Shown one piece after another: positions 17,135-55,954 of a DNA stretch of 64,000 nt (its first letter is position 1; each line of letters opens with the position of its first letter). Both the position numbers and the translations under genes were made by a program. The notes beneath the pieces were generated by a model that was given only the letters and a program-made list of their open reading frames with translations, had not been told where the DNA came from and did no database searches. The DNA comes from Chiloscyllium plagiosum. Taxonomy: Eukaryota. The stretch covers positions 35,385,945-35,449,944 of the forward strand of contig NC_057731.1 of assembly GCF_004010195.1 (NCBI RefSeq), read 5' to 3'.

Positions 17135-20100
17135 AGAAAATAAAACATTACAGTGCAGTACAGGCCCTTCAGCCCTCGATGTTGTGCCAACCAGTGAAAA
17201 TAATCTGTTGTCCATCTAACCTACACCATTCCATTATTATCCATATGTAAGCCCACTGAAATGCCCTTAACGTCAGCGAGTCTACTATTGTTGCAGGCAG
17301 GCCGTTTCATGCCCCTACTACTCTGAATGAAGAAACTATCCCTAATATCTGTCCTAAATCTACCACCCCTCAATTTTAAGCTATGTCCCCTCATGTTAGC
17401 CTTCACTATCCAAGGAAAAAGACTCTCACTGTCCATTCTATCTAACCCTTGATTATGTTATACGCCTCGATTGAGTCATCTCTCAACCTTCTTCTCTCCA
17501 ACAAAAACACCCTCCGTTCCCTCAGCCTTTCCTCATAAGACCATCCCTCCATACCAGGCAACATCCTAGTAAATCTCCTCTGACCCCTTTCCAAAGCTTC
17601 CATATCCTTCCTATAATGTGGTGACCAGAACTGCACACACTACTCTAGCTGCGGCCTTATCAGTGTCTTGTACAGCTGAAGCATGACCTTGTGGCTCCAA
17701 AATTCAATGCCCCTATCAATAAATACCAATACATCATATGCCTTTTTAGCAACCCTATCAACCTGGGTGGCAACTTTCAGGGATTTATGCACCAGGACAC
17801 TGAAATCTCTCTGTTCATCTACACTGCCAAGAATTTTACCATTTGCCCAGTACTCTGCATTCCTGTTACTTCTTCCAAAGTGAACTACCTCACACTTTTT
17901 CACATTAAACTCAATTTGCCACTTCTCAGCCCAGCTCTGTATCTTATCTATGTCCCTCTGTAACCCACAACAACCTTTGGCACTATCCACAACTCTACCT
18001 ACATTAGTGTCATCTGCAAATTTACTAACCCATCCACACATCCAGATCATTTATGAAAATGACAAACAGCAGTGGCCCCAAACAGATCCTTGCGGCACAC
18101 TACTGGTAACTAAGCTCAAGGTGAACATTTCCCATCAACCACCACCCTCTTTCTTCCTTCAGTCAGCCAATCTCTGATCCATTTCACTAAATCACCTTCA
18201 ATCCAGAAACTCTGCATTTTGTGCAATAGCCTACTATGTGGAACCTTATTAAACACCTTACTGAAGTCCATATAAACCACATCAACCACTTCACCCTCAT
18301 CCACCTATTTTATCACCTTCTGAAAGAACTCAATAAGTTAGTGAGGCACAACCTACCCTTCACAAAACCGTGTTGACTATCCCTAATGAAATTATTTCTT
18401 TCCAGATGATTATAAATCCTACTTCTTTTAACCGTTTCCAACCCCTTACCCACAACCGAAGTAAGGCTCACTGGCCTTTAATTACTGGGGTTGTTCCAAC
18501 TCCCCTTCTTAAACAAGAGAAAAACACCTGCTATCTTCCAGTCTTCTGGCTCTACTCTTGTCGACAATAATGACATAAAGATCAAAGCCAAAAGGTCTGC
18601 AATCTCCTCCCTGACTTCCCAGAGAATCCGAGGCTATATCCCAACTGGCCCCGGGGGTCTAATCTATTTTCAGGTCTTCCAAAATTGCTAAAACTTCCTC
18701 TTTGTCAACTGTAATCCTATCTAATCTAGTAGTCTGTATCTCCATAATCTCACTAACATCGCCCTTTTCCAATGCGAATACTGCCGAAAAGTATGCATTA
18801 AGCGCTTCCCCTATGTCCTCAGATTTCACATATAACTTCCTACTATTATTTTTGATTGGCCCTAGTCTTACTCTAGTCATTCTTTTATTCCTGATATACT
18901 TATGGTTTTCCTTGATCCTATCTGCCAACAATTTCTCATGTCCCCTCCTGCCTCTTCTTATTCCTCTCTTTAGATCTTTTCTGGCTAAAATATCTCTCAA
19001 GCCCCCTAACTCAGCCTTCACGCCTCAATCTCACATAAACCTTCTTCTTCTTCCTGACAAGAACTTCAATTTCTTTAGTAAATCATGGCACCCTCTCTTG
19101 ACAACTACCTCCCTGCCTGATAGGTACATACTTATCAAGGATCCGTATTAGCTGTTCCTTGAATAAGCTCCACATTTCAAGTGTGTCCATTCCCTGCAGT
19201 TTTCTTCCCCATCCTATGCATCCTAAATCTTACCTAATCGCATCCTAATTGCCTTTCCACCAGTTGTACTTCTTTCCCTGCTGTATATGTGAGGCAGCAG
19301 TGCTAACCACTGAGCCACTGTGCCACCCTAAGTATGGTCACTATTGCCAAAGTGCTCACCTACCTCCAAATCTAACACCTGACTGGGTTCATTCCCCAGT
19401 ACCAAATCCAATATGGCATTGTCCCTTGTTGGCCTGTCTACATACTGTGTCAGAAAACCCTTCTGTACACATTGAACAAAAACTGACCCATCTAAACTAC
19501 TTGAACTATAGTATTCCCAGTCAATATTGGGGAAGTTAAAGTCCCCCATAACAACTACCCTGTTACTCTCGCTCCTATCGAGAAACATCTTTGCTGTCCT
19601 TTCCTCTACATCCCTGGAACAATTCAGGGGCCTATAGAAAACTCCCAACAGGGTGACCTTTCCTTTCCTCTTTCTAACCTCAGCCCAAACTACCTCAGTG
19701 GATGAGTCCTCAAACATTCTGTTAGCTGCTGTAATACTACTCTTGATTAACAATGCCACACCACACCACCAGTGCTTCCCCACCCCCTTTTACCATCTTC
19801 TCTGCTCTTGCTGAAACAGCTAAATCCCAGAGTCTGCAACAGCCATTCCTGTCCCTCCATTAGCCATGTCTTTGAAATGGCTACATCAAAATCCCAGGTA
19901 CCAACCCATGCTGCAAGTTCACCCATCTTATTCTGGATGCTCCTGGCATTGAAGTACACACATTTCAAACCAACATCCTGATTGCCAGTGCCCTCTTGTG
20001 ACTGTGTAACCTATCCCTGACCTCACTACCCTCAACCTCCTGTACACAGGAACAACAATTCAGGTTCCCATCCTCCTGCTGCATAAGTTTAAACCCACCT

Positions 20101-20325
20101 GAAGAGCACTAGCAAATTTCCCTCCCACGATATTGGTCCCCCTCTGGTTCACGTAAAGACCATTCTCTTTGTAGAGGTCCCACCTTCCTCAGAAAGAGCT
20201 CCAATTGTCCAAGAATCCAAAACCCTCCCTCTTGCACCATCCCTACAGCCACGTGTTCAGCTCCACTCTCTCCCTGTTCCTCGCTTCACTAGCATGTGGC
20301 ATGGGCAACAAACCAGAGATACCAG
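17135..20325 (-). mobile_element. CR1-clade LINE (ORF1 3' end plus broken ORF2 with endonuclease and RT)
   Basis: ORF fragments KCVYFNARSI..., GVFYRP...VMGDFNFPNIDW...ILDLVL, VYMDFSKVFNKVPH, SKFADDT, QFWSPHYRKD; many frameshifts and stops. Confidence 0.93.
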
Positions 20326-22140
20326 AACTCTGTTTGTTTTGGAGCTGATTTTAATTTTTATTCTTCATTGCGGATGGACTTTCCAGTGAGAGTAATTTAC
20401 TGAATCTACCCGATTAGAACTGTTCAGTTCTTACTATTGTTATGATTTTCTCTTAAACTTGCTGTTCTATTGAAAGAAAATGTTTCTTCAAGTCTCCTCT
20501 TAACTACAGCCACTCTTGGCTGCTATCACATTAGTGAGACTGCCCTTCAACAGTTCTGTGGTCTTGACATCCTTTGTAAAGCAAGGTGGAGTTTAATCTT
20601 ATTTTAAGGTCTAAAAATGTTACGTCCTGTAATCAAGCAAATGATTTGCATTAATCTTAACTAATCTCTGATTCTGTATGTTTTGCTCTTGTTTGTGAAA
20701 CATAACATCTTAGATTTTTGCACCTTTTAACAGCCTTGCCACAAATAAAACAACGGTTGATGCTGTATTAAGGATGGTCCCAAGATCCACTGAGTTTTCA
20801 GAAATTGTTACAATGCACATTCACAGTCTTGCATCAGTTAAGAGTGAAGGAAGCACACTTGTGATTTATTTCTGATTTTAAATCTCACGATTTTACTTGA
20901 GCTAAATGGAGTATCTGTTTTCCCCCATTCCCCAACATAAATACCACAAGACATTGGTTAAGCCACAGTCTGTTCTGAAAGTAAATTAACAAAAAGTGAC
21001 TTTGTAATAGATCACCTCTTTTGTTTAGAACTTAAAAAAACCATTGTAGGCAGCTAAAAATACATCACATCTCAACTGCATACCATTCACCATGTTAACC
21101 ACACACACAGATGCCTTCTAACTGTGGCTTTGCTTTATTTATAGATTCATATTCATCAGCAAATACAAAGCATCCTAATCCAAAGTATCCTATTATTACC
21201 CACCTTAATATTTCAATACTACAGTTAAAGGGGAGAAACACAAATGAGTCAGAAAGTTTATTTCTCTAAAAGGAATTTCAACAATAGTATCTTAGTCACA
21301 AACTAAAAGAAAGATAAAGATTGCACTTATGCCACAGCTTTCACATCCAATGGATGTCCTGAAATATTGAACAGCCAAAAAAAACAAATACTTCTGAAGT
21401 ATCAATACAGGAAACACCACAGCCAATTTGTACGCAACAAGTTCCCACATCATCATACAACTGACCAGATAATCTGTTCAGACAAAAACAAAGAACTGTG
21501 GATGCTAAAGATCAGAAACAGAAACAGAACTGGAGCTCTGAATAAGCGTCACCGCACTCAAAACATCAGCTCTGCTTTCTCTCCACAGATGCTGCCAGAT
21601 ATGCTGTGTTTCTCCAGCAATTTCTGTAATCTATTTAGATGTTGGCCAGGCAAAAGGAGAAGGCCTTTAATCTTTAAATAATGCCTTGGGATCTGTTACA
21701 TCAATTGACCAGGCATAATGGGCACAATTTAACAGCTCATCAAAAAGACAAGGCATTGTCATACTGCACTGAAGCAATGGACAAAGAGATTTTTCTTAAA
21801 ATCAGTTTTGCCTCTTCATTTAGTTTGGGATCTGTTTAAAAAGCTTAGTACTTGCTTAAATATTAAGCATGTTGCACTTATTTAAATGTTTGCACTCCTA
21901 TAAAAATCATACCCAATAGTTTATACGGGTGCAGCACTGAACCATACAGACTAGAAAGACCCAGTTTCAAACCTGAGTTTGTCGAGTGGTAATGGTCTTT
22001 TTGATTGATATGGTCTGATGAAAATATCTGTCTAATCGCACTCAGGGGGAGGTAGAAAAATGGTAGTTTGAACCAGGTCCTAACAGAAACAGTGTCTAAT
22101 GAAAAGTAAGATTAGAGGAGGAATTATTCAAATGCCTTAC

Positions 22141-22245
22141 ATCTTTCAATGGGACAAGTTTCTTCAGAGTCTCGTATGAAGGTGCCTGGTCAGCTGCATA
22201 AAAGCAAAGCATTTTGTCCCCTTCCAAATCAGATTTATACTTCCT
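22141..22245 (-). CDS. NRAP: NRAP coding exon 13
   Basis: tag|RKYKSDLEGDKMLCFYAADQAPSYETLKKLVPLKD|gtaagg; 105 nt. Confidence 0.92.
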
Positions 22246-22774
22246 CTAAAACAGAAGGAAATATTACAAAGTCAGTGTTTTGACAGTAAAGTTAAATTCT
22301 TACAAAGTCAACAGGTAAAATTACTGGAACAACAACATTTCAAAACAATAAAGTGAATTGACCTTCTGACCCAGCTGTCTACCTGGGGAATGAGCTTGAC
22401 TGTCCATGCATATGAATATATACTCAGTAAAACACTAGACTGTTTGTAAGTTTGTTGTTTCAGTCAAGGGAGCTACTGTTTATTCTCAAATTGTATGTCA
22501 CTAGGGCCCAGATTGTGCCACAGCTGTGTAGTGCCACTCAAATCACCTAAACATCAAATGTTATCAATTCAGTATCATAATCTCAACACATTGTTCATGT
22601 CCATACCTCTGGGCCAGTGGGTTTGCGTTCAAGTCCTACCACAGGATCTGATAGCCACAACCATGTGTCTTAACACATCCAGGAGAAAGTGAGGTCTGCA
22701 GATGCTGGAGATCAAAGTTGAAACTTTATTGCTGGAACAGCACAGCAGGTCAGGCAGCATCCAGGGAACAGGAG

Positions 22775-22810
22775 ATTCGACGTTTCGGGCACAGGCCCTT
22801 CTTCAGGAAT
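22775..22810 (-). ncRNA. Minimal type I hammerhead ribozyme motif (intact core)
   Basis: AUUC-CUGAAGA-A-GGGC-CUGU-GCCC-GAAAC-GUC-GAAU: helix I AUUC/GAAU, 4-bp helix II, palindromic ACGU helix III; predicted cleavage after 22779. Confidence 0.8.
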
Positions 22811-22984
22811 GAGCAGAGAGTGTTCAGCAGGAGAAGATAAAAGGTAGGGAGGAGGGACTTGGAGGAGGGGCGTTGGAAATGTGATAGGTGGAAAGAGGTC
22901 AAGGTGAGGGTGATAGGTCGGAGTAGGATGGAGGCGGAGAGGTCAAGAAGAAGACTGCAGGTCAGGAAGGCGACCTCACTTTCT

Positions 22985-23152
22985 CCTGTATCCCATTGCA
23001 GACGACCTGCCCTCCCCCTGTCTGTATTCCATTGCAGACGCTCTGCCCTCCCACTGTCTGTATCCCATTACCGACGATCTGCCCTCCCCTGTCTGTATCT
23101 CATTGCAGACGATCTGACCCTCCCCCTGTCTGTATCCCATTGCAGACGCTCT
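22985..23152 (+). repeat. ~36-bp minisatellite (about 4.5 units)
   Basis: Unit ~TCTGCCCTCCCCCTGTCTGTATCCCATTGCAGACGA; mirrored at 23614-23778. Confidence 0.9.
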
Positions 23153-23272
23153 GTCTCCATTTGACATCTTATTGAATGACTATCCTGGTGCATGAGCAAA
23201 CTGAGCTCCATCTCCTTCATCCGGTTCATTAGAATAGATTGCAATTTGTTGATGATCTCATACAGATCCCTG

Positions 23273-23613
23273 NNNNNNNNNNNNNNNNNNNNNNNNNNNN
23301 NNNNNNNNNNNNNNNNNNNNNNNNNNNNNNNNNNNNNNNNNNNNNNNNNNNNNNNNNNNNNNNNNNNNNNNNNNNNNNNNNNNNNNNNNNNNNNNNNNNN
23401 NNNNNNNNNNNNNNNNNNNNNNNNNNNNNNNNNNNNNNNNNNNNNNNNNNNNNNNNNNNNNNNNNNNNNNNNNNNNNNNNNNNNNNNNNNNNNNNNNNNN
23501 NNNNNNNNNNNNNNNNNNNNNNNNNNNNNNNNNNNNNNNNNNNNNNNNNNNNNNNNNNNNNNNNNNNNNNNNNNNNNNNNNNNNNNNNNNNNNNNNNNNN
23601 NNNNNNNNNNNNN
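23273..23613. other. Assembly gap (N run)
   Basis: Run of N. Confidence 1.
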
Positions 23614-23778
23614 CGTCTGCAATGGGATACAGACAGGGGGAGGGTCAGATCGTCTGCAATGAGATACAGACAGGGGAGGGCAGATCGTCGGTAATGGGAT
23701 ACAGACAGTGGGAGGGCAGAGCGTCTGCAATGGAATACAGACAGGGGGAGGGCAGGTCGTCTGCAATGGGATACAGGA
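23614..23778 (-). repeat. ~36-bp minisatellite, inverted copy
   Basis: CGTCTGCAATGGGATACAGACAGGGGGAGGGCAGA units. Confidence 0.9.
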
Positions 23779-23951
23779 GAAAGTGAGGTCGCCTTCCTGA
23801 CCTGCAGTCTTCTTCTTGTCCTCTCCGCCTCCCTCCTACTCCGACCTATCACCCTCACCTTGGCCTCTTTCCACCTATCACATTTCCAACGCCCCTCCTC
23901 CAAGTCCCTCCTCCCTACCTTTTATCTTCTCCTGCTGAACACTCTCTGCTC

Positions 23952-23987
23952 ATTCCTGAAGAAGAGCCTGTGCCCGAAACGTCGAAT
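23952..23987 (+). ncRNA. Minimal hammerhead motif (one helix II mismatch)
   Basis: ATTC-CTGAAGA-A-GAGC-CTGT-GCCC-GAAAC-GTC-GAAT. Confidence 0.7.
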
Positions 23988-24089
23988 CTCCTGTTCCCTG
24001 GATGCTGCCTGACCTGCTGTGCTGTTCCAGCAATAAAGTTTCAACTCTTAACACATCCAAACATGTTGATTATAAACAAAATCTGAAAG

Positions 24090-24245
24090 GGCAACTGATG
24101 CTGTAAATCAGAAACAAAAACAGAAATTGCTAGAAAAGCTCAGCAAGTCTGGCAGCATCTGTTCTGAGGAAGAGTCACTAGATCAGAAACGTTAACTCTG
24201 ATTTCTCTCCACAGATGCTACCGGACCTGCAGGGTTTATCCAACA
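24090..24245. mobile_element. Short Penelope-derived hairpin element with degenerate hammerhead (24161-24196, +)
   Basis: GGCAGCATCTG...CAGATGCTACC arms; GTT-CTGAGGA-AGAGTCACTAGATCA-GAAAC-GTT-AAC. Confidence 0.65.
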
Positions 24246-25387
24246 TTAATACTGGACCATAGGGCTGCAGATAGATGTTGTACCAGTAGAAATCACCACT
24301 GTCTTGGACGGTAGTGCTGTTCAATCGAGTTACTGGTCTCTGATTGGTGGGCAGTGTGAGGGAGGTGGGACTTCTGCCCTCCAGGGTCATTGATCCAAGG
24401 AGGACCTGCCATTGCCCAGTTACAGTAGGCCTTCCCTAAAAGTGGCGGCACCAGGACACTCACCAGTTTTCCAGTCCCACCTCCGTTAAACACCACCCGA
24501 GAATTCCACCTGGTATTGTGCAAAACTAGGTTTCAATCTGAATCCATCTCAGATCTGTGGGACTGGGAAACGTGCGCGTTGATTTATAATATGTGTATCT
24601 CTAAAACTCACATTCTTGCCAGTACTGTGCACTTGCTGCACTTAAAATTACAAGGACAAAATTTACAGAAGAAAATGTCAACCATTGTTATTAGTTACAC
24701 AGATTAGCAACAACTTATGGCAAAAGAAGAAACATCCATGAATTGCAAATTGCCACAAATTGCTGCACAATTTCCACCATGCTACACTTTGTGAAAACAA
24801 AAGTTTGCCCATAAGCTCCCTATTAGCTTCATAAAATGTACTCTATTGGCTATTAATTACCCATTAAATTCATCATGGAAAATTAATGCTGATAATTAAT
24901 AAGGGAGTATCCTTTTAACCATTAATGAATGCCAATCAACCTTACTGACCCAGAACAATTAAACAATTATTTGAAATAAAAATATACAACAAAAACAGTT
25001 AGAGAATGGGCTCTCAGTCATAAAGTAGTGAATTTATTAAACTAGAAAAGTAGTTAAGGACAGCAGGATTGAAAATGAGAGGCTATAATTGAAATTGGGA
25101 GGGGGGGCAAAGTTGGGACTTGGAGCTAAAGTCAGAGAAGAGAGGGGAACTGGAGAATTATAGGATCACATGATAATTTTTGGGAACTATAATGCAATGG
25201 TTTGGTTTTGTTACAACCACATACACAGTATTATTGTGTTTTTGTGCATTTTTATTTTTAATCAAAACTTGGAATATATAACGTTGACATAGTTGCTTTG
25301 CCCAGATCATTGCTTGAGCAGAATAGGTCATGATTCTGAATAAGTGACGTGGAGGTCAAGATTTTGGGCAGATTTGCTCTCAGGATT

Positions 25388-25681
25388 AAGTGGTTAGCCT
25401 CACAGCACCAGGGTTTCAGGTTCAATTCCAGCCTCAGGTGACTGTCTGTGTGGAGTTTGCACATTCTCCCCGTGTCTGCGTAGGTTTCTTCCGGATGCTC
25501 TGGTTTCCTCCCACAGTCCAAAGATGTGCAGGTCAGGTGAATTGGCCATGCTAAATTTCCCATAGTGTTTGGTGCATTAATCAGATGGAAATGGGTCTGG
25601 GTGGGTTACTCTTCGGAGGGTCGGTGTGGACCTGTTGGGCCAAAGGGCCTGTTTTCACACTGTAGGGAATCTAATGTAATC
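25388..25681 (+). mobile_element. HE1-type SINE
   Basis: Close match to 417-709. Confidence 0.85.
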
Positions 25682-25966
25682 AGGACTAAGTCCAAGACTC
25701 AGCAGAACATGTACAGAGGATAAATAATGAAAGCAAATGTAGAAATGGAACCGGTAGGATTAAAACTTGTTTATCCCCCAGAAATGTTGCATCTATTAAG
25801 TGAGTACGTTTCACTTAGTTCAGTTATCGGTGCTCAGCATTATTAAGGAAGAAATTGAACAGCAACCATATATGTACAAGTTGGCCAGATACAGAAATCA
25901 GAAATTTACTGCATGAAGTGCCCTTGTCCTCCAAGAGCTCTGCTATTATATCCTTCATGAGATGAT

Positions 25967-26120
25967 ATGGAGTTGCCAGTGTTGGACTGGGGTGGACAAA
26001 GTCAGAAGTCACATGACACCAGGTTATAGTCCGACAGGTTTATTTGAACTCACAAGCTTTCAGTGGGCCTGACAAAATACAATTGTCAGACTATAGCCTG
26101 GTGGTTTGTGACTTTTGATA
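25967..26120. mobile_element. Short inverted-repeat element of a second, probably Penelope-derived, family
   Basis: CACCAGGTTATAGTCCGACAGG vs TGTCAGACTATAGCCTGGTG; related single arm at ~1326-1400. Confidence 0.5.
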
Positions 26121-28464
26121 TTCTCAATGAGAGACTTGGTATTCACCTGCATGGAATCGGATGTGCTTAATAGCTAGTTAGCAACCTATCAGAAAAAAAT
26201 TTACAGCAAATCTATTCTAGTGTAAGCATATTTTTAACAGCATGATTAATCTCAATTTCTGCCAAACAACCTTGCTGGCACTAAAAATCAACTTTACAAG
26301 TGTAGAGTTGCATTCCTTCAAAATTTAGTGCTGGACATTTTTAAAAAGTTGTGAAAAAGTTTCTTTCTTTAATATTTTGTTTATTTCTCACTTAATCCTA
26401 TCTTTCTTTCACCATCCATTTTGATTCCTCTACATTATTTGGCATTGGATTAAATGTTTCAACTTGCTCTTCCTGGTCCAGTCTGCTTCAAAAATCTATG
26501 GCTCATAACCAACCAATGGCAGAAGAGGGAAGAGTGGGGAAGAGTGAGGAGAAGTGGGGCAAGGGAGTTACTGTAGTGTGAGGCAGTGAGAGTAAGGGTT
26601 CAATGTTGTCAGGGGTGAGGGAGTAACTGATCACTGTTAGGGGTGTTGAGGGAAGGGGTCAAGAGCCTCTATGTTGGGGGTGAGGTGAGCTAATTGAGGG
26701 CAGTGCACACTCTCTGTTGATAGGAGAGGGAGGTGAAGTCTGGGGGAGATGGGGTGAACACCATTGTGGAGGTAGCAGAGAGCTCTCAACATCATGGGTA
26801 GGGGTTTGAGAAGTTGTTCACACTAAAAAGAGAAATGCTGGTCGTGTGATAATGAAATATTGCTGACATTATTTTTTAGTTTCTCTTTTACTGTGAAACA
26901 AGCTGGAAATTATATAATTCACATAAATCTGAAGACATTTAGTTTTGCCTCTACTGCAAGGGGGACACAATACCTCCATACCGTGAGGGACCAGCTGGAA
27001 GTTAAAAGATATGCTTCGCATTTCTGAAGGAGTTAGGATCAAAAGTCACAGCTAAAAATACAGAGCTTGGTCCAGACACAAAGGAACAGGTGAGGAGTGG
27101 TGCTCCTAATGTAATCACTACACCTCAGAAAAATCAAGACAAAATCAGTAAAGATCACTATGAATCTTATGTGCTTTAATTACTTTTATTTCAAAAGTGT
27201 TTGTTGAGGTAGCTCTGATAAACCTTTCAGCTAATTAACTCCTCCAAGCCGGCACTCCCTGATAAAGTGCCATCATCACTCACTAAGTGTTATTTAAGTT
27301 ATACAAAGGGAGTTCAGATTGTATTAAAATTAGACAATCACATAATAGTTATTATTTAATATTGATAAATATTAATGCTAAAACATTATAAAAATCAATC
27401 CTGAGAACCATCCTTATGGCTTTGAATGCAATCATTACTGGATATTCAGTCTTAGTGCCCATGGTAAGTCAGAGAACATGCTACTTGACGTGGATAGAAG
27501 CAATACACCAGGAAAGGTATAATGTTTTATTCTGCTGTGTTTAACCTAATGTGTCCCTTTAAGGTCACAAGTTGTTGAGCCTTCCTAAAGTCAGTTTGAG
27601 ATCAATTGGCAACAGGCAAATTGAAAACTATTAGAGTATTTATAGCACAGAAAGCAACCATGTCGCTCATTAGTATTTCAATGGCAGAGATTGTGGTTGG
27701 TGTTCCACTGGATAAATAGTGTCACAGCTTCATAGCCATGTTCATAGTGTTCAGTGCCAGAACATAAAAACACTGGATGACTGCTTTGCTAATTCTTGGA
27801 TAGAAATCAATTTCTACAGCACTCTCCTTGCAGCTGGTGCTTCCTAGATACAGGAAGTGCTCAATGTTCTATTACATGATGGCGACGGGAGGCTTTGTTG
27901 CCATCCTGCCATCATTGTCTTGGTGTTCTCATAGCTGACACATTGACGAACCTTGCCACTGCTACTCAAGACTGGCCATCACATTTTGGAGGATGCACAG
28001 TTCTCTGGCCAACAAATGATGTCATTCTCAAAATCCAGATAGCCAGCCAGTGATGCTGCTGCAGCATGCCAAAGTCTGGACTCACCATCACCTTCCTCAT
28101 TCTGAATTTGATAGCCAAGAAGAAAGGAAATGGAGGGGATGGAGTTTGCAGCCTTGTCATTCTCCTGTGCCGGTGATGATACTGAAGTGACCTATAGTGC
28201 TAATGCTATTTTTGATACAACAGCTGGAGTCACAGTATAAGCTTTTGTTGATGATAATATACTGTTCCAGGACGTCATCCTTGTAAAGTAATAAGATAGT
28301 GATGAAGGAACAGTGATGAGTAAGAATCTGAGTAAAGAGAAGGAGCAATCTCTATGAGAGAGGTAGATGTACTTACCGAGAAGTGTAGAAAGTAAAAAAT
28401 GTAAATAGGGACTTTTGAATAAACCTTTACAGCCAGATCTTATTCAGCCGTAGGTGAAGGAAAA

Positions 28465-50442: not shown

Positions 50443-50780
50443 NNNNNNNNNNNNNNNNNNNNNNNNNNNNNNNNNNNNNNNNNNNNNNNNNNNNNNNNNN
50501 NNNNNNNNNNNNNNNNNNNNNNNNNNNNNNNNNNNNNNNNNNNNNNNNNNNNNNNNNNNNNNNNNNNNNNNNNNNNNNNNNNNNNNNNNNNNNNNNNNNN
50601 NNNNNNNNNNNNNNNNNNNNNNNNNNNNNNNNNNNNNNNNNNNNNNNNNNNNNNNNNNNNNNNNNNNNNNNNNNNNNNNNNNNNNNNNNNNNNNNNNNNN
50701 NNNNNNNNNNNNNNNNNNNNNNNNNNNNNNNNNNNNNNNNNNNNNNNNNNNNNNNNNNNNNNNNNNNNNNNNNNNNNNNN
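50443..50780. other. Assembly gap (N run)
   Basis: Run of N. Confidence 1.
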
Positions 50781-50892
50781 CTGACCTATCACCTTCATCT
50801 CCTCCCCCACTGACCTATTGTACTCTATGCTACTCTCTCCCCACCCCCACTCTCCTCTAGCTTATCTTCCACGCTTCAGGCTCTCTGCCTTT

Positions 50893-50928
50893 ATTCCTGA
50901 TGAAGGGCTTTTGCCCGAAACATCGATT
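50893..50928 (+). ncRNA. Minimal hammerhead motif (helix III broken by G>A)
   Basis: ATTC-CTGATGA-A-GGGC-TTTT-GCCC-GAAAC-ATC-GATT. Confidence 0.65.
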
Positions 50929-51430
50929 TTGCCTGTCCTCGGATATTGCCTGTCCTCGGATGCTACCTGAATTGCTGTGCTCTTCCAGCACCACTAATCC
51001 GGGATCTGGTTTCCAGCATCTGCAGTCATTGTTTTTACCTCTTTGCCAAGGTTTTGTTGAGTAATGTGAAGGGCCCACAGTTTAGGAGCCTTTAACAAAC
51101 CCACCAATGTACATGCAGATAGTCTCACATCCACCCTTCCTGGCCTCATCAGGCATAGATGCACCAAGGACAAGATAGTTGCCCAAAATAAGGCTTGTAA
51201 TGTGGGAATTTGATGCCCTTGTCCCTGCCTCACACAATGAAAATGATACTTCAGGACTCAGCACTGCAAGACTATCCTGAAAATTAGTTTCTGACCAGTG
51301 TCATGAACTCCACCAACATTATGGCAGGAGTCCCAACTGAATAGTCACAAATTCTTGGGGCAAAATATAATTAAAAAGCAATTTTACTGCGTATGGCACT
51401 TAAATTTTACAATACCTTCAAGCTGCTTAC

Positions 51431-51906: not shown

Positions 51907-52140
51907 GCTGAAAACAAAAAATGCTGGAGATCACAACGGGTCAGGGAGCAACCATGGAGAGGAAGCAAGTTAACCTTTCGGGTCGAGATAACTCTTCATC
52001 AGAGCTGAAGATGAAGAGTCATCTAGACTTGAAATGTTAGCTTGCTTTCTCTCCATGGATGCTGCCTGACCTGTTGTGATCTCCAGCTTTTGTTTTGCTT
52101 TGAGTATATATTCCAGCACCTACAGTAATTTGCTCCTACA
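51907..52140. mobile_element. Penelope-derived hairpin element with two back-to-back degenerate hammerhead cores
   Basis: Arms GCTGGAGATCACAACGGGTCAGG... / ...CCTGACCTGTTGTGATCTCCAGC; centre ACTCTTCATCAG-agctgaa-GATGAAGAGT. Confidence 0.75.
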
Positions 52141-54380: not shown

Positions 54381-55685
54381 AAGGTGAAAGGGAGCTGACA
54401 ACATATCAATTTGGGTAGTCAACCTTCCAAAATCAAACCAACACTTTGCAGCACAAACTAAAATAAAGGACTGCGGATGTTGGAAATCTGAAACAAGAAC
54501 AGTAATTGTTGGAGAAACTCAGATGGTCTGGCGGAATCTGTTGCGAGAAAAGAATTAACGCTCCGAGTTTAGTGTCCCTTCTTCAGAATTTCTGTTTTTC
54601 TGTGCAGTGTCTTTATTATGGAGTCTCTGTTGTACTCTAAAATATTTTTGCTGTTCAAAGCCACACAAACTATTATACATTATTGTTTGTATGCACATCT
54701 TTAACAATAAAGTAAGTGTATCTCGTAAATCACTTCCTTTCTGTAGCTGTCTATTTGATTCTCAAATGGATATTTTCACAAACGTACAGTCTTGCGTTAA
54801 AGTTGTTATTGAGGAAGTTACGAATATCAGCACACGTCTGCCTTGCATGTCATCTCCACAAAATCAACCTCAAAACATCAGTCATGGCCAAGGATTGAGA
54901 AAGGAAATAAAACTGGCCCCAACATCTCAATAGCTGATGGTATTCAGGTTTTAATATTCTGCAGCAATTTCATCACTACCCTTAAACTTAACCAGCTCCT
55001 TATGTTCAAGGCTTCCAACATTCAAGGCAATGGGCCTATTAGATGGAGAGATAGTGCAGACCTGATGGCCAAAGGGTCTCTTCTGTACTATAGGATTCTA
55101 TGATTCGCCCATGTTAATGACTTAGATAATAGGATAAAAAGTCACACCCAGATTTGCTGATGGTACAGAGATGGATGGTATTTTAAGTAGTGTAGATGGA
55201 AGTACAAAACTACAAAAATGTATTGAGAGTTAAATGAATGAGAAAAATTGGGGCAAATGGATTAAATGTAGAAAAATGGAGGTTGTCCACTTTGAATGTA
55301 CAAGTTATAGAACAGGGTCCTTTCTAAGTGGTGGGAAGTTAAAAATAATGGATGTTCATAAAAACTTGAGGTCTGGGTAAATAGATCACTAAAATATCTT
55401 GACACAGAATACAAACAAAAAGGCTAATGAATGCTCGTCTTTGTATCTAAGTTATTAGGATGCCAGAGGATAGAAGTCATGTTTCAGCTATACAAAGTCA
55501 TGATTAGACCATATCTTGAGGAAGAGAACTGTATCTTAAAAAGTGTATACTGGATTGGAAGGAAGTTGACCAAAATGATATCTGTACTCGAAGCATTAAA
55601 TTACAAGATTATATGAACTGTTCCTCAGAACTTAGAGGATAAAAGGCTGATTTGTTCTAAGTTTTCAAACTATGAAGGGGAACAG

Positions 55686-55890
55686 GAGAAAGTGAGGTCT
55701 GCAGATGCTGGAGATCAGAGCTGAAAATGTGTTGCTGGAAAAGCGCAGCAGGTCAGGCAGCATCCAGGGAACAGGAGAATCGACGTTTCGGGCATAAGCC
55801 CTTCTTCAGGCATAAGCCCCTGAACGTCGATTCTCCTGTTCCCTGGATGCTGCCTGACCTGCTGCGCTTTTCCAGCAACACATTTTCAGC
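55686..55890. mobile_element. Penelope-derived perfect hairpin element with 15-bp TSD and hammerhead core (55778-55810, -)
   Basis: Perfect 68-bp inverted repeat 55720-55787 / 55823-55890; TSD TATGAAGGGGAACAG at 55671-55685 and 55891-55905; minus strand CTGAAGA-A-GGGC-TTAT-GCCC-GAAAC-GTC. Confidence 0.88.
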
Positions 55891-55954
55891 TATGAAGGGG
55901 AACAGAGAATGGATAAAGAAAAACATTTTGCCGATTGGAGGGTACAGGTCAAGG

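What the first reader, a model, noticed from the sequence alone, without database searches (positions are those of the whole stretch)
22775..22810. Intact hammerhead ribozyme core on the sense strand of the NRAP pre-mRNA, with its own antisense mask
Seen: the minus strand reads AUUC CUGAAGA A GGGC CUGU GCCC GAAAC GUC GAAU, with all core nucleotides, closed helices I and II, an extra A after A9 and a palindromic ACGU helix III. It sits about 530 nt upstream of the exon 13 acceptor. Its near-perfect complement (23952-23987) is transcribed earlier in the same intron. Known: Penelope-like elements carry minimal type I hammerheads that usually cleave well only as dimers. Inference: the intron could self-cleave co-transcriptionally, or the ~430-bp inverted repeat could sequester the ribozyme in dsRNA and make the insertion tolerable.
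Basis: partly seen in the sequence, partly recalled or inferred. Interest (0 to 1): 0.75.

Follow-up and report, generated by a model that had tools for sequence, protein, structure and literature searches.

The report
Jumping-gene hammerhead in shark NRAP intron
The hammerhead ribozyme motif is really there, but it is one of thousands of identical copies left by a Penelope-like jumping gene, and it is likely inactive in the NRAP transcript because it would need a partner copy and is predicted to be locked in a long hairpin that this kind of element routinely leaves when it inserts.

Summary
The sequence is as described: a complete minimal type I hammerhead motif on the NRAP sense strand in intron 12, about 530 nt before coding exon 13, with its complement transcribed earlier. 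It is ordinary for this genome. The same 36-mer occurs 8,512 times and the wider core 87,506 times (one per 41 kb). It belongs to a young Penelope-like element (PLE) inserted at about 22681-24046 as two outward-facing ends, with a 14-nt target-site duplication and a 35-nt tail on one end. That inverted layout is the published signature of PLE insertion and recurs in all 15 divergent pairs examined, so the 'mask' is a by-product. Helix III has no loop, so a monomer cannot close it. No second sense copy is visible in the gene, and folding pairs all 36 nt in the hairpin. Published PLE hammerheads do not cleave as monomers, and one tested needs the element's protein. Cleavage was not tested, Rfam does not recognise the motif, and 341 N lie between the arms. 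The scan has reported this kind of motif before on other DNA of this genome and in a ray. Verdict: new member of a known kind, low interest.

The parts
22775..22810 (-). Minimal type I hammerhead motif: 4-bp helix I, CUGAAGA, extra A, 4-bp helix II with CUGU loop, GAAAC-GUC with loopless palindromic ACGU; predicted cut 22779/22778
   Evidence: sequence; descriptor scan; 8,512 exact copies
23952..23987 (+). Second copy on the opposite strand with one change that breaks a helix II pair; antisense mask in the NRAP pre-mRNA
   Evidence: this variant occurs 21 times in the genome
22716..23148 (-). Left arm of the inverted repeat (PLE end); matches other genomic copies at 100%
23614..24046 (+). Right arm of the inverted repeat, no tail; carries all 4 differences from the family sequence
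22681..22715 (-). 35-nt PLE 'tail', present on one arm only
   Evidence: 15 of 15 pairs asymmetric; PMC8557442 and PMC11167929
22668..22681 (+). Target-site duplication, left copy (14 nt; the boundary base is ambiguous)
24046..24059 (+). Target-site duplication, right copy
   Evidence: organism B contigs begin to align at 24046
22973..23272 (.). Subfamily-specific piece (36-nt repeat, 4.7 copies, plus about 120 nt); in sister copy L053 it is joined to the RT thumb where the Zn-finger/GIY-YIG end would be
23273..23613 (.). Run of 341 N between the arms; contents unknown
   Evidence: 16 of 20 copies go into N at the same base
22725..22730 (-). AATAAA on the NRAP sense strand, 49 nt after the predicted cut, inside the paired arm
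22140..22243 (-). NRAP coding exon 13 (boundaries approximate by a base or two)
   Evidence: tblastn with shark NRAP proteins; sequence

Best explanation
The motif is the minimal hammerhead in the terminal repeat of a Penelope-like retrotransposon, left in NRAP intron 12 by a likely recent insertion, and it is likely inert in the pre-mRNA. Shown: the motif, its copy number, the insertion boundaries, the duplication, the tail, and RT and GIY-YIG coding pieces in sister copies. Inferred: the element's RT/endonuclease inserted two outward-facing ends in one event. When NRAP is transcribed, the antisense arm is made first. The stem can start to zip about 340 nt before the hammerhead emerges, so the motif would be paired as it appears. 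Even unpaired, it could not close helix III alone and would need a second sense copy or the element's protein. The intron is therefore predicted to be spliced out normally.
For: Copy number: 8,512 exact 36-mers, control 0, and 87,506 cores. That predicts about 1.6 per 64 kb, and 2 are found. Layout: in the first 100 exact copies there are 14 adjacent minus-then-plus pairs within 1.5 kb and no plus-then-minus pair. All 15 of 15 divergent pairs have a tail on one arm only, and 9 of 15 show a 14-17 nt duplication. This matches the published PLE layout (PMC8557442, passages). Protein: six coding pieces from sister copies map in order on P0132, a protein with RVT_1 and GIY-YIG domains, and L018 passes the Pfam GIY-YIG cut-off. 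Folding: helix I probability is 0.00 with 60 nt or more of flank, the arm duplex is -955 kcal/mol, and all 36 nt pair. No other intact sense-strand motif lies in the coding span held in the window. Literature: a monomer shows no cleavage and dimers show low cleavage (PMC4209133). The anole PLE hammerhead does not cleave without protein, and no RNA-seq reads end at its site (PMC11167929). Age: two organism B contigs from two studies begin to align at the first base of the duplication, after about 675 unlike letters; I read this as an empty site.
Against: Cleavage was not measured, and no RNA covering this intron was seen. The 341 N could hide a tandem sense copy that would allow a dimer. Folding models ignore core tertiary energy, Mg2+ and proteins. 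This subfamily has a fully paired 4-bp helix I, and a second family keeps helix I with different letters, so the motif looks functional in the element's own RNA. The empty site in organism B is inferred; the loose letters were not shown. No displayed contig bridges either junction by the tool's 31-letter rule: the best reaches 25 letters into the left arm.
Confidence: 0.87

Rival explanations
1. The motif cleaves a fraction of NRAP pre-mRNA in vivo, helped by the element's protein or by pairing in trans with another PLE RNA through the ACGU palindrome, or by a tandem copy hidden in the gap.
For: The core is intact and helix I is fully paired. Protein-assisted cleavage was shown for the anole element (PMC11167929). 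Family-derived RNA of both orientations is present in run X22. The gap contents are unknown.
Against: The predicted 433-bp duplex (-955 kcal/mol) dwarfs the hammerhead dimer (-13.1), which is itself less stable than an alternative dimer (-18.3) or two monomers (-14.2). There was no pile-up of read ends anywhere on the family sequence among 1,526 records laid from X22; this is a weak test. Rates are reported as very low even for dimers (PMC6765202, passages).
Confidence: 0.06
2. The fold-back was selected: sense-strand hammerheads in introns are harmful, so only masked insertions persist in genes such as NRAP.
For: The mask is complete and is transcribed first. Hammerhead-bearing retrozymes are depleted in Xenopus introns after size normalisation (bioRxiv 10.64898/2026.07.22.740005, section 13).
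Against: The fold-back is made by the insertion mechanism wherever it lands. Solo copies are the majority: 10 of 18 distinct insertions. The same preprint finds about 44% of copies in introns. I had no gene annotation, so strand bias in introns was not tested.
Confidence: 0.04
3. The inverted repeat is partly an assembly artefact: repeat consensus pasted on both sides of a gap. In that case there would be no mask or a different one.
For: N lies between the arms, and 16 of 20 copies go into N at exactly the same base. The inner 176 nt of the arms are identical. No displayed contig bridges a junction by 31 letters.
Against: A 14-nt duplication flanks the whole unit, the tail is on one arm only, and the right arm has 4 private differences. 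Gap-free copies such as L014 and L029 show the same layout. A contig from another sample runs from the left flank 25 letters into the arm.
Confidence: 0.05

Closest known systems
Minimal hammerheads (min-HHR) in the terminal repeats of metazoan Penelope-like elements (Cervera and de la Pena 2014, PMC4209133; parts 1-2 of 4 read)
   Same: [quoted passage not shown] Thousands of mostly single genomic copies, some in opposite-strand pairs a few hundred bases apart.
   Different: Helix II is 4 bp rather than the 7-8 bp of the Schistosoma examples. The count here (87,506 by one exact pattern) is far above the roughly 4,000 and 9,000 reported for coelacanth and Xenopus, though the search methods differ. 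Sharks are not named in the parts I read.
Inverted insertion units of endonuclease-bearing PLEs with a one-sided tail (Craig et al. 2021, PMC8557442, passages; Frangieh et al. 2024, PMC11167929, parts 1-2 of 4)
   Same: Truncated inverted copy forming flanking inverted repeats, 30-40 nt tail at one end, hammerhead just inside the end, short-read assembly gaps.
   Different: Sister copies carry a C-x-x-x-x-x-C-x-x-C-type linker before the endonuclease, which points to Neptune or Nematis rather than Poseidon (clade not tested by a tree). The window's subfamily appears to have lost the endonuclease end.
Conserved intronic hammerheads of amniotes (RECK, CTCL, DTNB; review PMC6155905, passages)
   Same: A type I hammerhead in a vertebrate intron.
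   Different: Those are single-locus motifs conserved across species. This one is minimal, one of thousands of identical copies, and likely absent at this site in a related species.
Animal non-LTR retrozymes (bioRxiv 10.64898/2026.07.22.740005, passages and section 13)
   Same: Non-autonomous, hammerhead-bearing, PLE-related, often intronic.
   Different: Retrozymes are head-to-tail tandem units. This insertion is an inverted pair with a tail and a duplication.

Membership tests
PLE minimal hammerhead (min-HHR) | Core CUGANGA ... GAAA ... NUH with helix II | tested here: met
PLE minimal hammerhead (min-HHR) | Extra nucleotide between 9 and 10.1; G10.1-C11.1 pair | tested here: met
   sequence against PMC4209133
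PLE minimal hammerhead (min-HHR) | Palindromic 15.2-16.2, no loop III, short helix I | tested here: met
   ACGU, loop 0, helix I 4 bp
PLE minimal hammerhead (min-HHR) | Lies in the terminal repeat of a PLE | tested here: met
   the same end follows a GIY-YIG C-terminus in L023 and RT pieces in L004, L007, L024, L053
PLE minimal hammerhead (min-HHR) | Helices kept by compensatory change between subfamilies | tested here: met
   a second family (238 exact matches) has a 5-bp helix II and different helix I letters; 5 of 6 loci keep 4 pairs at unconstrained outer positions. Two families are few independent events.
PLE minimal hammerhead (min-HHR) | Self-cleavage as a dimer or with protein | not testable with these tools
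   needs a bench assay
Rfam hammerhead families | Match to a curated covariance model | tested here: not met
   no hammerhead family at E up to 10 in 20000-27000 or 22740-22850
Endonuclease-bearing PLE | RT followed by C-terminal GIY-YIG | tested here: met
   at family level: six pieces from sister copies map in order on P0132; Pfam GIY-YIG in L018. Pfam found no RT domain in the short RT pieces alone.
Endonuclease-bearing PLE | Coding sequence present at this locus | tested here: inconclusive
   none visible; 341 N between the arms
Endonuclease-bearing PLE | Inverted ends with a 30-40 nt tail on one side | tested here: met
   35 nt here; 15 of 15 pairs asymmetric
Neptune clade | Zn-finger-like linker between RT and endonuclease | tested here: met
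   L018 reads CNRRRCNTC before the GIY-YIG; the feature is shared with Nematis
Neptune clade | Placement in an RT tree | not tested
   no clade-labelled reference set on hand
Domesticated intronic hammerheads (RECK type) | Single-locus motif conserved across species | tested here: not met
   8,512 identical copies; site likely empty in organism B
Non-LTR retrozyme | Head-to-tail tandem hammerhead units | tested here: not met
   visible copies are on opposite strands; the gap could hide more

The most novel reading that the evidence does not exclude
This shark genome carries on the order of 90,000 intact minimal hammerhead cores, many necessarily on the sense strand of introns. PLE protein or abundant PLE RNA switches on the unmasked ones in trans, so host transcripts are cut whenever the element is active, and selection favours fold-back or antisense insertions in genes. 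The NRAP copy would be a masked survivor of that filter.
Probability: 0.06. Interest if true: 0.6.

Novelty: new member of a known kind. Interest (0 to 1): 0.12.

Why it matters
As found, it matters little: it is one more insertion of a known kind of element, and a reminder that hammerhead-like cores are about as common as one per 41 kb in this genome, so finding one in an intron says nothing about the gene. The only larger value is at family level. With tens of thousands of copies in solo and fold-back forms, this genome makes it possible to ask whether PLE hammerheads ever cut host transcripts, by counting strand bias in introns. That role in vivo is still open in the papers I read.

Tried and rejected
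Rfam: no hammerhead family in two scans. The hits listed were weak miRNA, lncRNA and snoRNA matches far below their gathering scores, which I take as chance.

Sequencing runs: no RNA holder listed for 20900-22680. Run X22 (single-cell poly(A), about 2% read) had no reads on exon 13 or the unique intron, so it says nothing about NRAP. It showed no read-end pile-up on the family sequence, a weak test because the library is fragmented and the reads come from any copy. The right junction could not be shown in organism A, because old repeats next to it swamped the tables. No reads were laid across both arms, so the fold-back and the gap remain unconfirmed by reads.

Pfam did not recognise 5 of the 6 element pieces scanned; only L018 hit GIY-YIG. 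The RT assignment rests on BLAST to P0132.

I looked for a dimer partner in the pre-mRNA. The only other intact sense motif is at 55782-55809, upstream of the start codon, with a 1-bp helix I.

Lunse et al. (PMC5785218) was not held, so I saw only its title and how the review PMC6765202 cites it.

Literature searches for a shark PLE hammerhead: one search gave 1 paper, where 'shark' refers to the ribozyme's shape. One search listed 12 papers, none on this family by title or abstract start. Subscription journals, repeat databases and supplements were not seen and may well list this family.

Considered and dropped for lack of evidence: a cryptic splice acceptor in the arm.

Full report
Observation. 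A structure descriptor found 2 such motifs in the 64-kb window, this one and 55782-55809. In 100 first-order Markov shuffles the mean was 0.13 motifs, and none had both helices at 4 bp or more. The complement at 23952-23987 differs by one base, which gives a G-U pair in the pre-mRNA. The arms are 433 nt with 4 differences, and 341 N lie between them. An exon from the window finds NRAP proteins, 85-90% identical in sharks, so the animal is a shark by inference. tblastn with whale shark NRAP places twelve coding exons from 54031 down to about 34770 and the thirteenth at about 22243. The motif is therefore in intron 12 on the sense strand, about 530 nt before the acceptor.

How common it is. The exact 36-mer occurs 8,512 times in the genome (4,252 forward, 4,260 reverse, control 0). 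The core with helix II and free loop positions occurs 87,506 times. By my arithmetic that is one per 41 kb, or 1.6 per window, and two are seen. A second family with a 5-bp helix II and different helix I letters has 238 exact matches. In 5 of the 6 loci fetched, helix I stays at four pairs at positions the pattern left free. This points to a fold kept by the element, though two families are few independent events.

What it belongs to. The insertion spans about 22681-24046 and is flanked by a 14-nt duplication. Both arms point outward. The left arm is 35 nt longer at its outer end. Among the first 100 exact copies (all on contig C1), 14 adjacent pairs are minus-then-plus within 1.5 kb and none is plus-then-minus. 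Across the loci fetched, 15 of 15 divergent pairs have one arm ending at the equivalent of 22681-22682 and the other at 22706-22719. An exact 14-17 nt duplication was found in 9 of the 15. Craig et al. describe this layout for PLEs: an inverted truncated copy forming flanking inverted repeats, a 30-40 bp tail at one end, and trouble for short-read assemblies (PMC8557442, passages). Frangieh et al. trace the tail to two reverse-transcription start sites (PMC11167929, parts 1-2 of 4). Six coding pieces from sister copies map in order onto P0132, a 902-residue protein with RVT_1 and GIY-YIG domains, at 37-54% identity. L018 passes the Pfam GIY-YIG cut-off and has a Zn-finger-like linker of the Neptune or Nematis type. 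In L053 the RT thumb runs directly into the 300-nt piece seen at 22973-23272, where L018 continues into the linker and endonuclease. The window's subfamily is therefore likely a non-autonomous derivative. That junction is also where 16 of 20 copies, this one included, go into N, while 4 continue. An assembly branch point is the simplest reading.

Age. The left arm is 100% identical to several other copies over about 590 nt, although pasted repeat consensus could inflate that. In runs of a second organism (B), contigs from two samples of two studies begin to align at 24046, the first base of the duplication, after about 675 letters that do not match the element's end (X9 and X11). I read this as an empty site; the letters were not shown. 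Records at 99% identity or more to the stretch number 630 in organism B run X7 against about 5,600 in each of two organism A runs, in line with a recent expansion. A contig from another organism A sample runs from the left flank 25 letters into the arm, short of the tool's 31-letter rule.

Would it cleave NRAP RNA? The motif has every listed feature of the minimal PLE hammerhead: the extra nucleotide after position 9, the G10.1-C11.1 pair and the palindrome at 15.2-16.2 (PMC4209133, parts 1-2 of 4). In that paper a monomer showed no cleavage and dimers and trimers showed little. The anole PLE hammerhead did not cleave without the element's protein, and no RNA-seq reads began or ended at its site. 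Here helix III has no loop, so one molecule cannot close it. The 36-mer alone folds into helices I and II at -7.1 kcal/mol, but helix I drops to probability 0.00 with 60 nt or more of flank. The two arms pair at -955 kcal/mol, and in the 1,451-nt span folded with the N left in place all 36 nt pair with 23952-23987. The hammerhead dimer (-13.1) is less stable than an alternative dimer (-18.3) or two monomers (-14.2). These models ignore tertiary contacts, Mg2+ and proteins. The antisense arm is transcribed first, and the inner end of the second arm (23148) emerges about 340 nt before the motif, so the stem would likely be zipping already. No second intact sense copy is visible in the coding span held in the window, but the gap could hide one.

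Is the mask special? No evidence says so. It is produced by the insertion mechanism. Of 20 loci centred on an exact 36-mer, 10 had an antisense copy upstream within 1.5 kb. Merging two duplicated pairs gives 18 insertions: 6 with a partner of the same subfamily, 2 with an older copy nearby, and 10 solo. In Xenopus about 44% of hammerhead-bearing retrozyme copies are intronic, with some depletion after size normalisation (bioRxiv 10.64898/2026.07.22.740005, section 13). Strand bias in this genome's introns could not be tested without an annotation, and it is the one test that could make the family interesting.

Results against my reading or unresolved. Pfam missed the RT pieces. No RNA from this intron was seen.

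Earlier notes of this scan reached the same reading for other copies in this genome and in a ray, and none lies near this place. I formed my reading before looking and do not count them as support.

Verdict. New member of a known kind; interest 0.12.

Noticed in passing
G000, genome-wide: 87,506 exact matches to the hammerhead core with helix II, one per 41 kb; far above the roughly 4,000 and 9,000 minimal hammerheads reported for coelacanth and Xenopus, though methods differ.
   Followed up: partly
window 22973-23272; L053:1481-2107; L018:2595-3131: A subfamily in which a 300-nt piece, starting with an inverted bit of the element's own tail and a 36-nt tandem repeat, replaces the Zn-finger/GIY-YIG end; 31 of the 40 scored matches to its last 133 nt are 100% identical.
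   Followed up: partly
window 22725-22730 (-): AATAAA on the NRAP sense strand, 49 nt after the predicted cut; a possible intronic polyadenylation signal, also inside the predicted duplex.
   Followed up: no
window 55684-55895: Older fold-back copy about 1.7 kb upstream of the NRAP start codon, with an intact sense-strand core at 55782-55809 but only a 1-bp helix I.
   Followed up: partly
window 24090-24250, 50881-50990, 51916-52094: Older, decayed remnants of related element ends, two of them short fold-backs, inside NRAP introns.
   Followed up: no
L029:1078-2858: A gap-free inverted unit of 1,780 nt with a 14-nt duplication whose interior is unlike the other copies; by eye it holds a LINE-like piece and a decayed GIY-YIG piece, possibly carried-along flanking DNA or a mis-join.
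   Followed up: no
window 22716-23148 with 23614-24046: A 433-bp near-perfect duplex in a muscle pre-mRNA would be a likely substrate for A-to-I editing (own knowledge); no RNA was available to check.
   Followed up: no
window 50443-50780: A second run of N (338) in NRAP intron 4.
   Followed up: no
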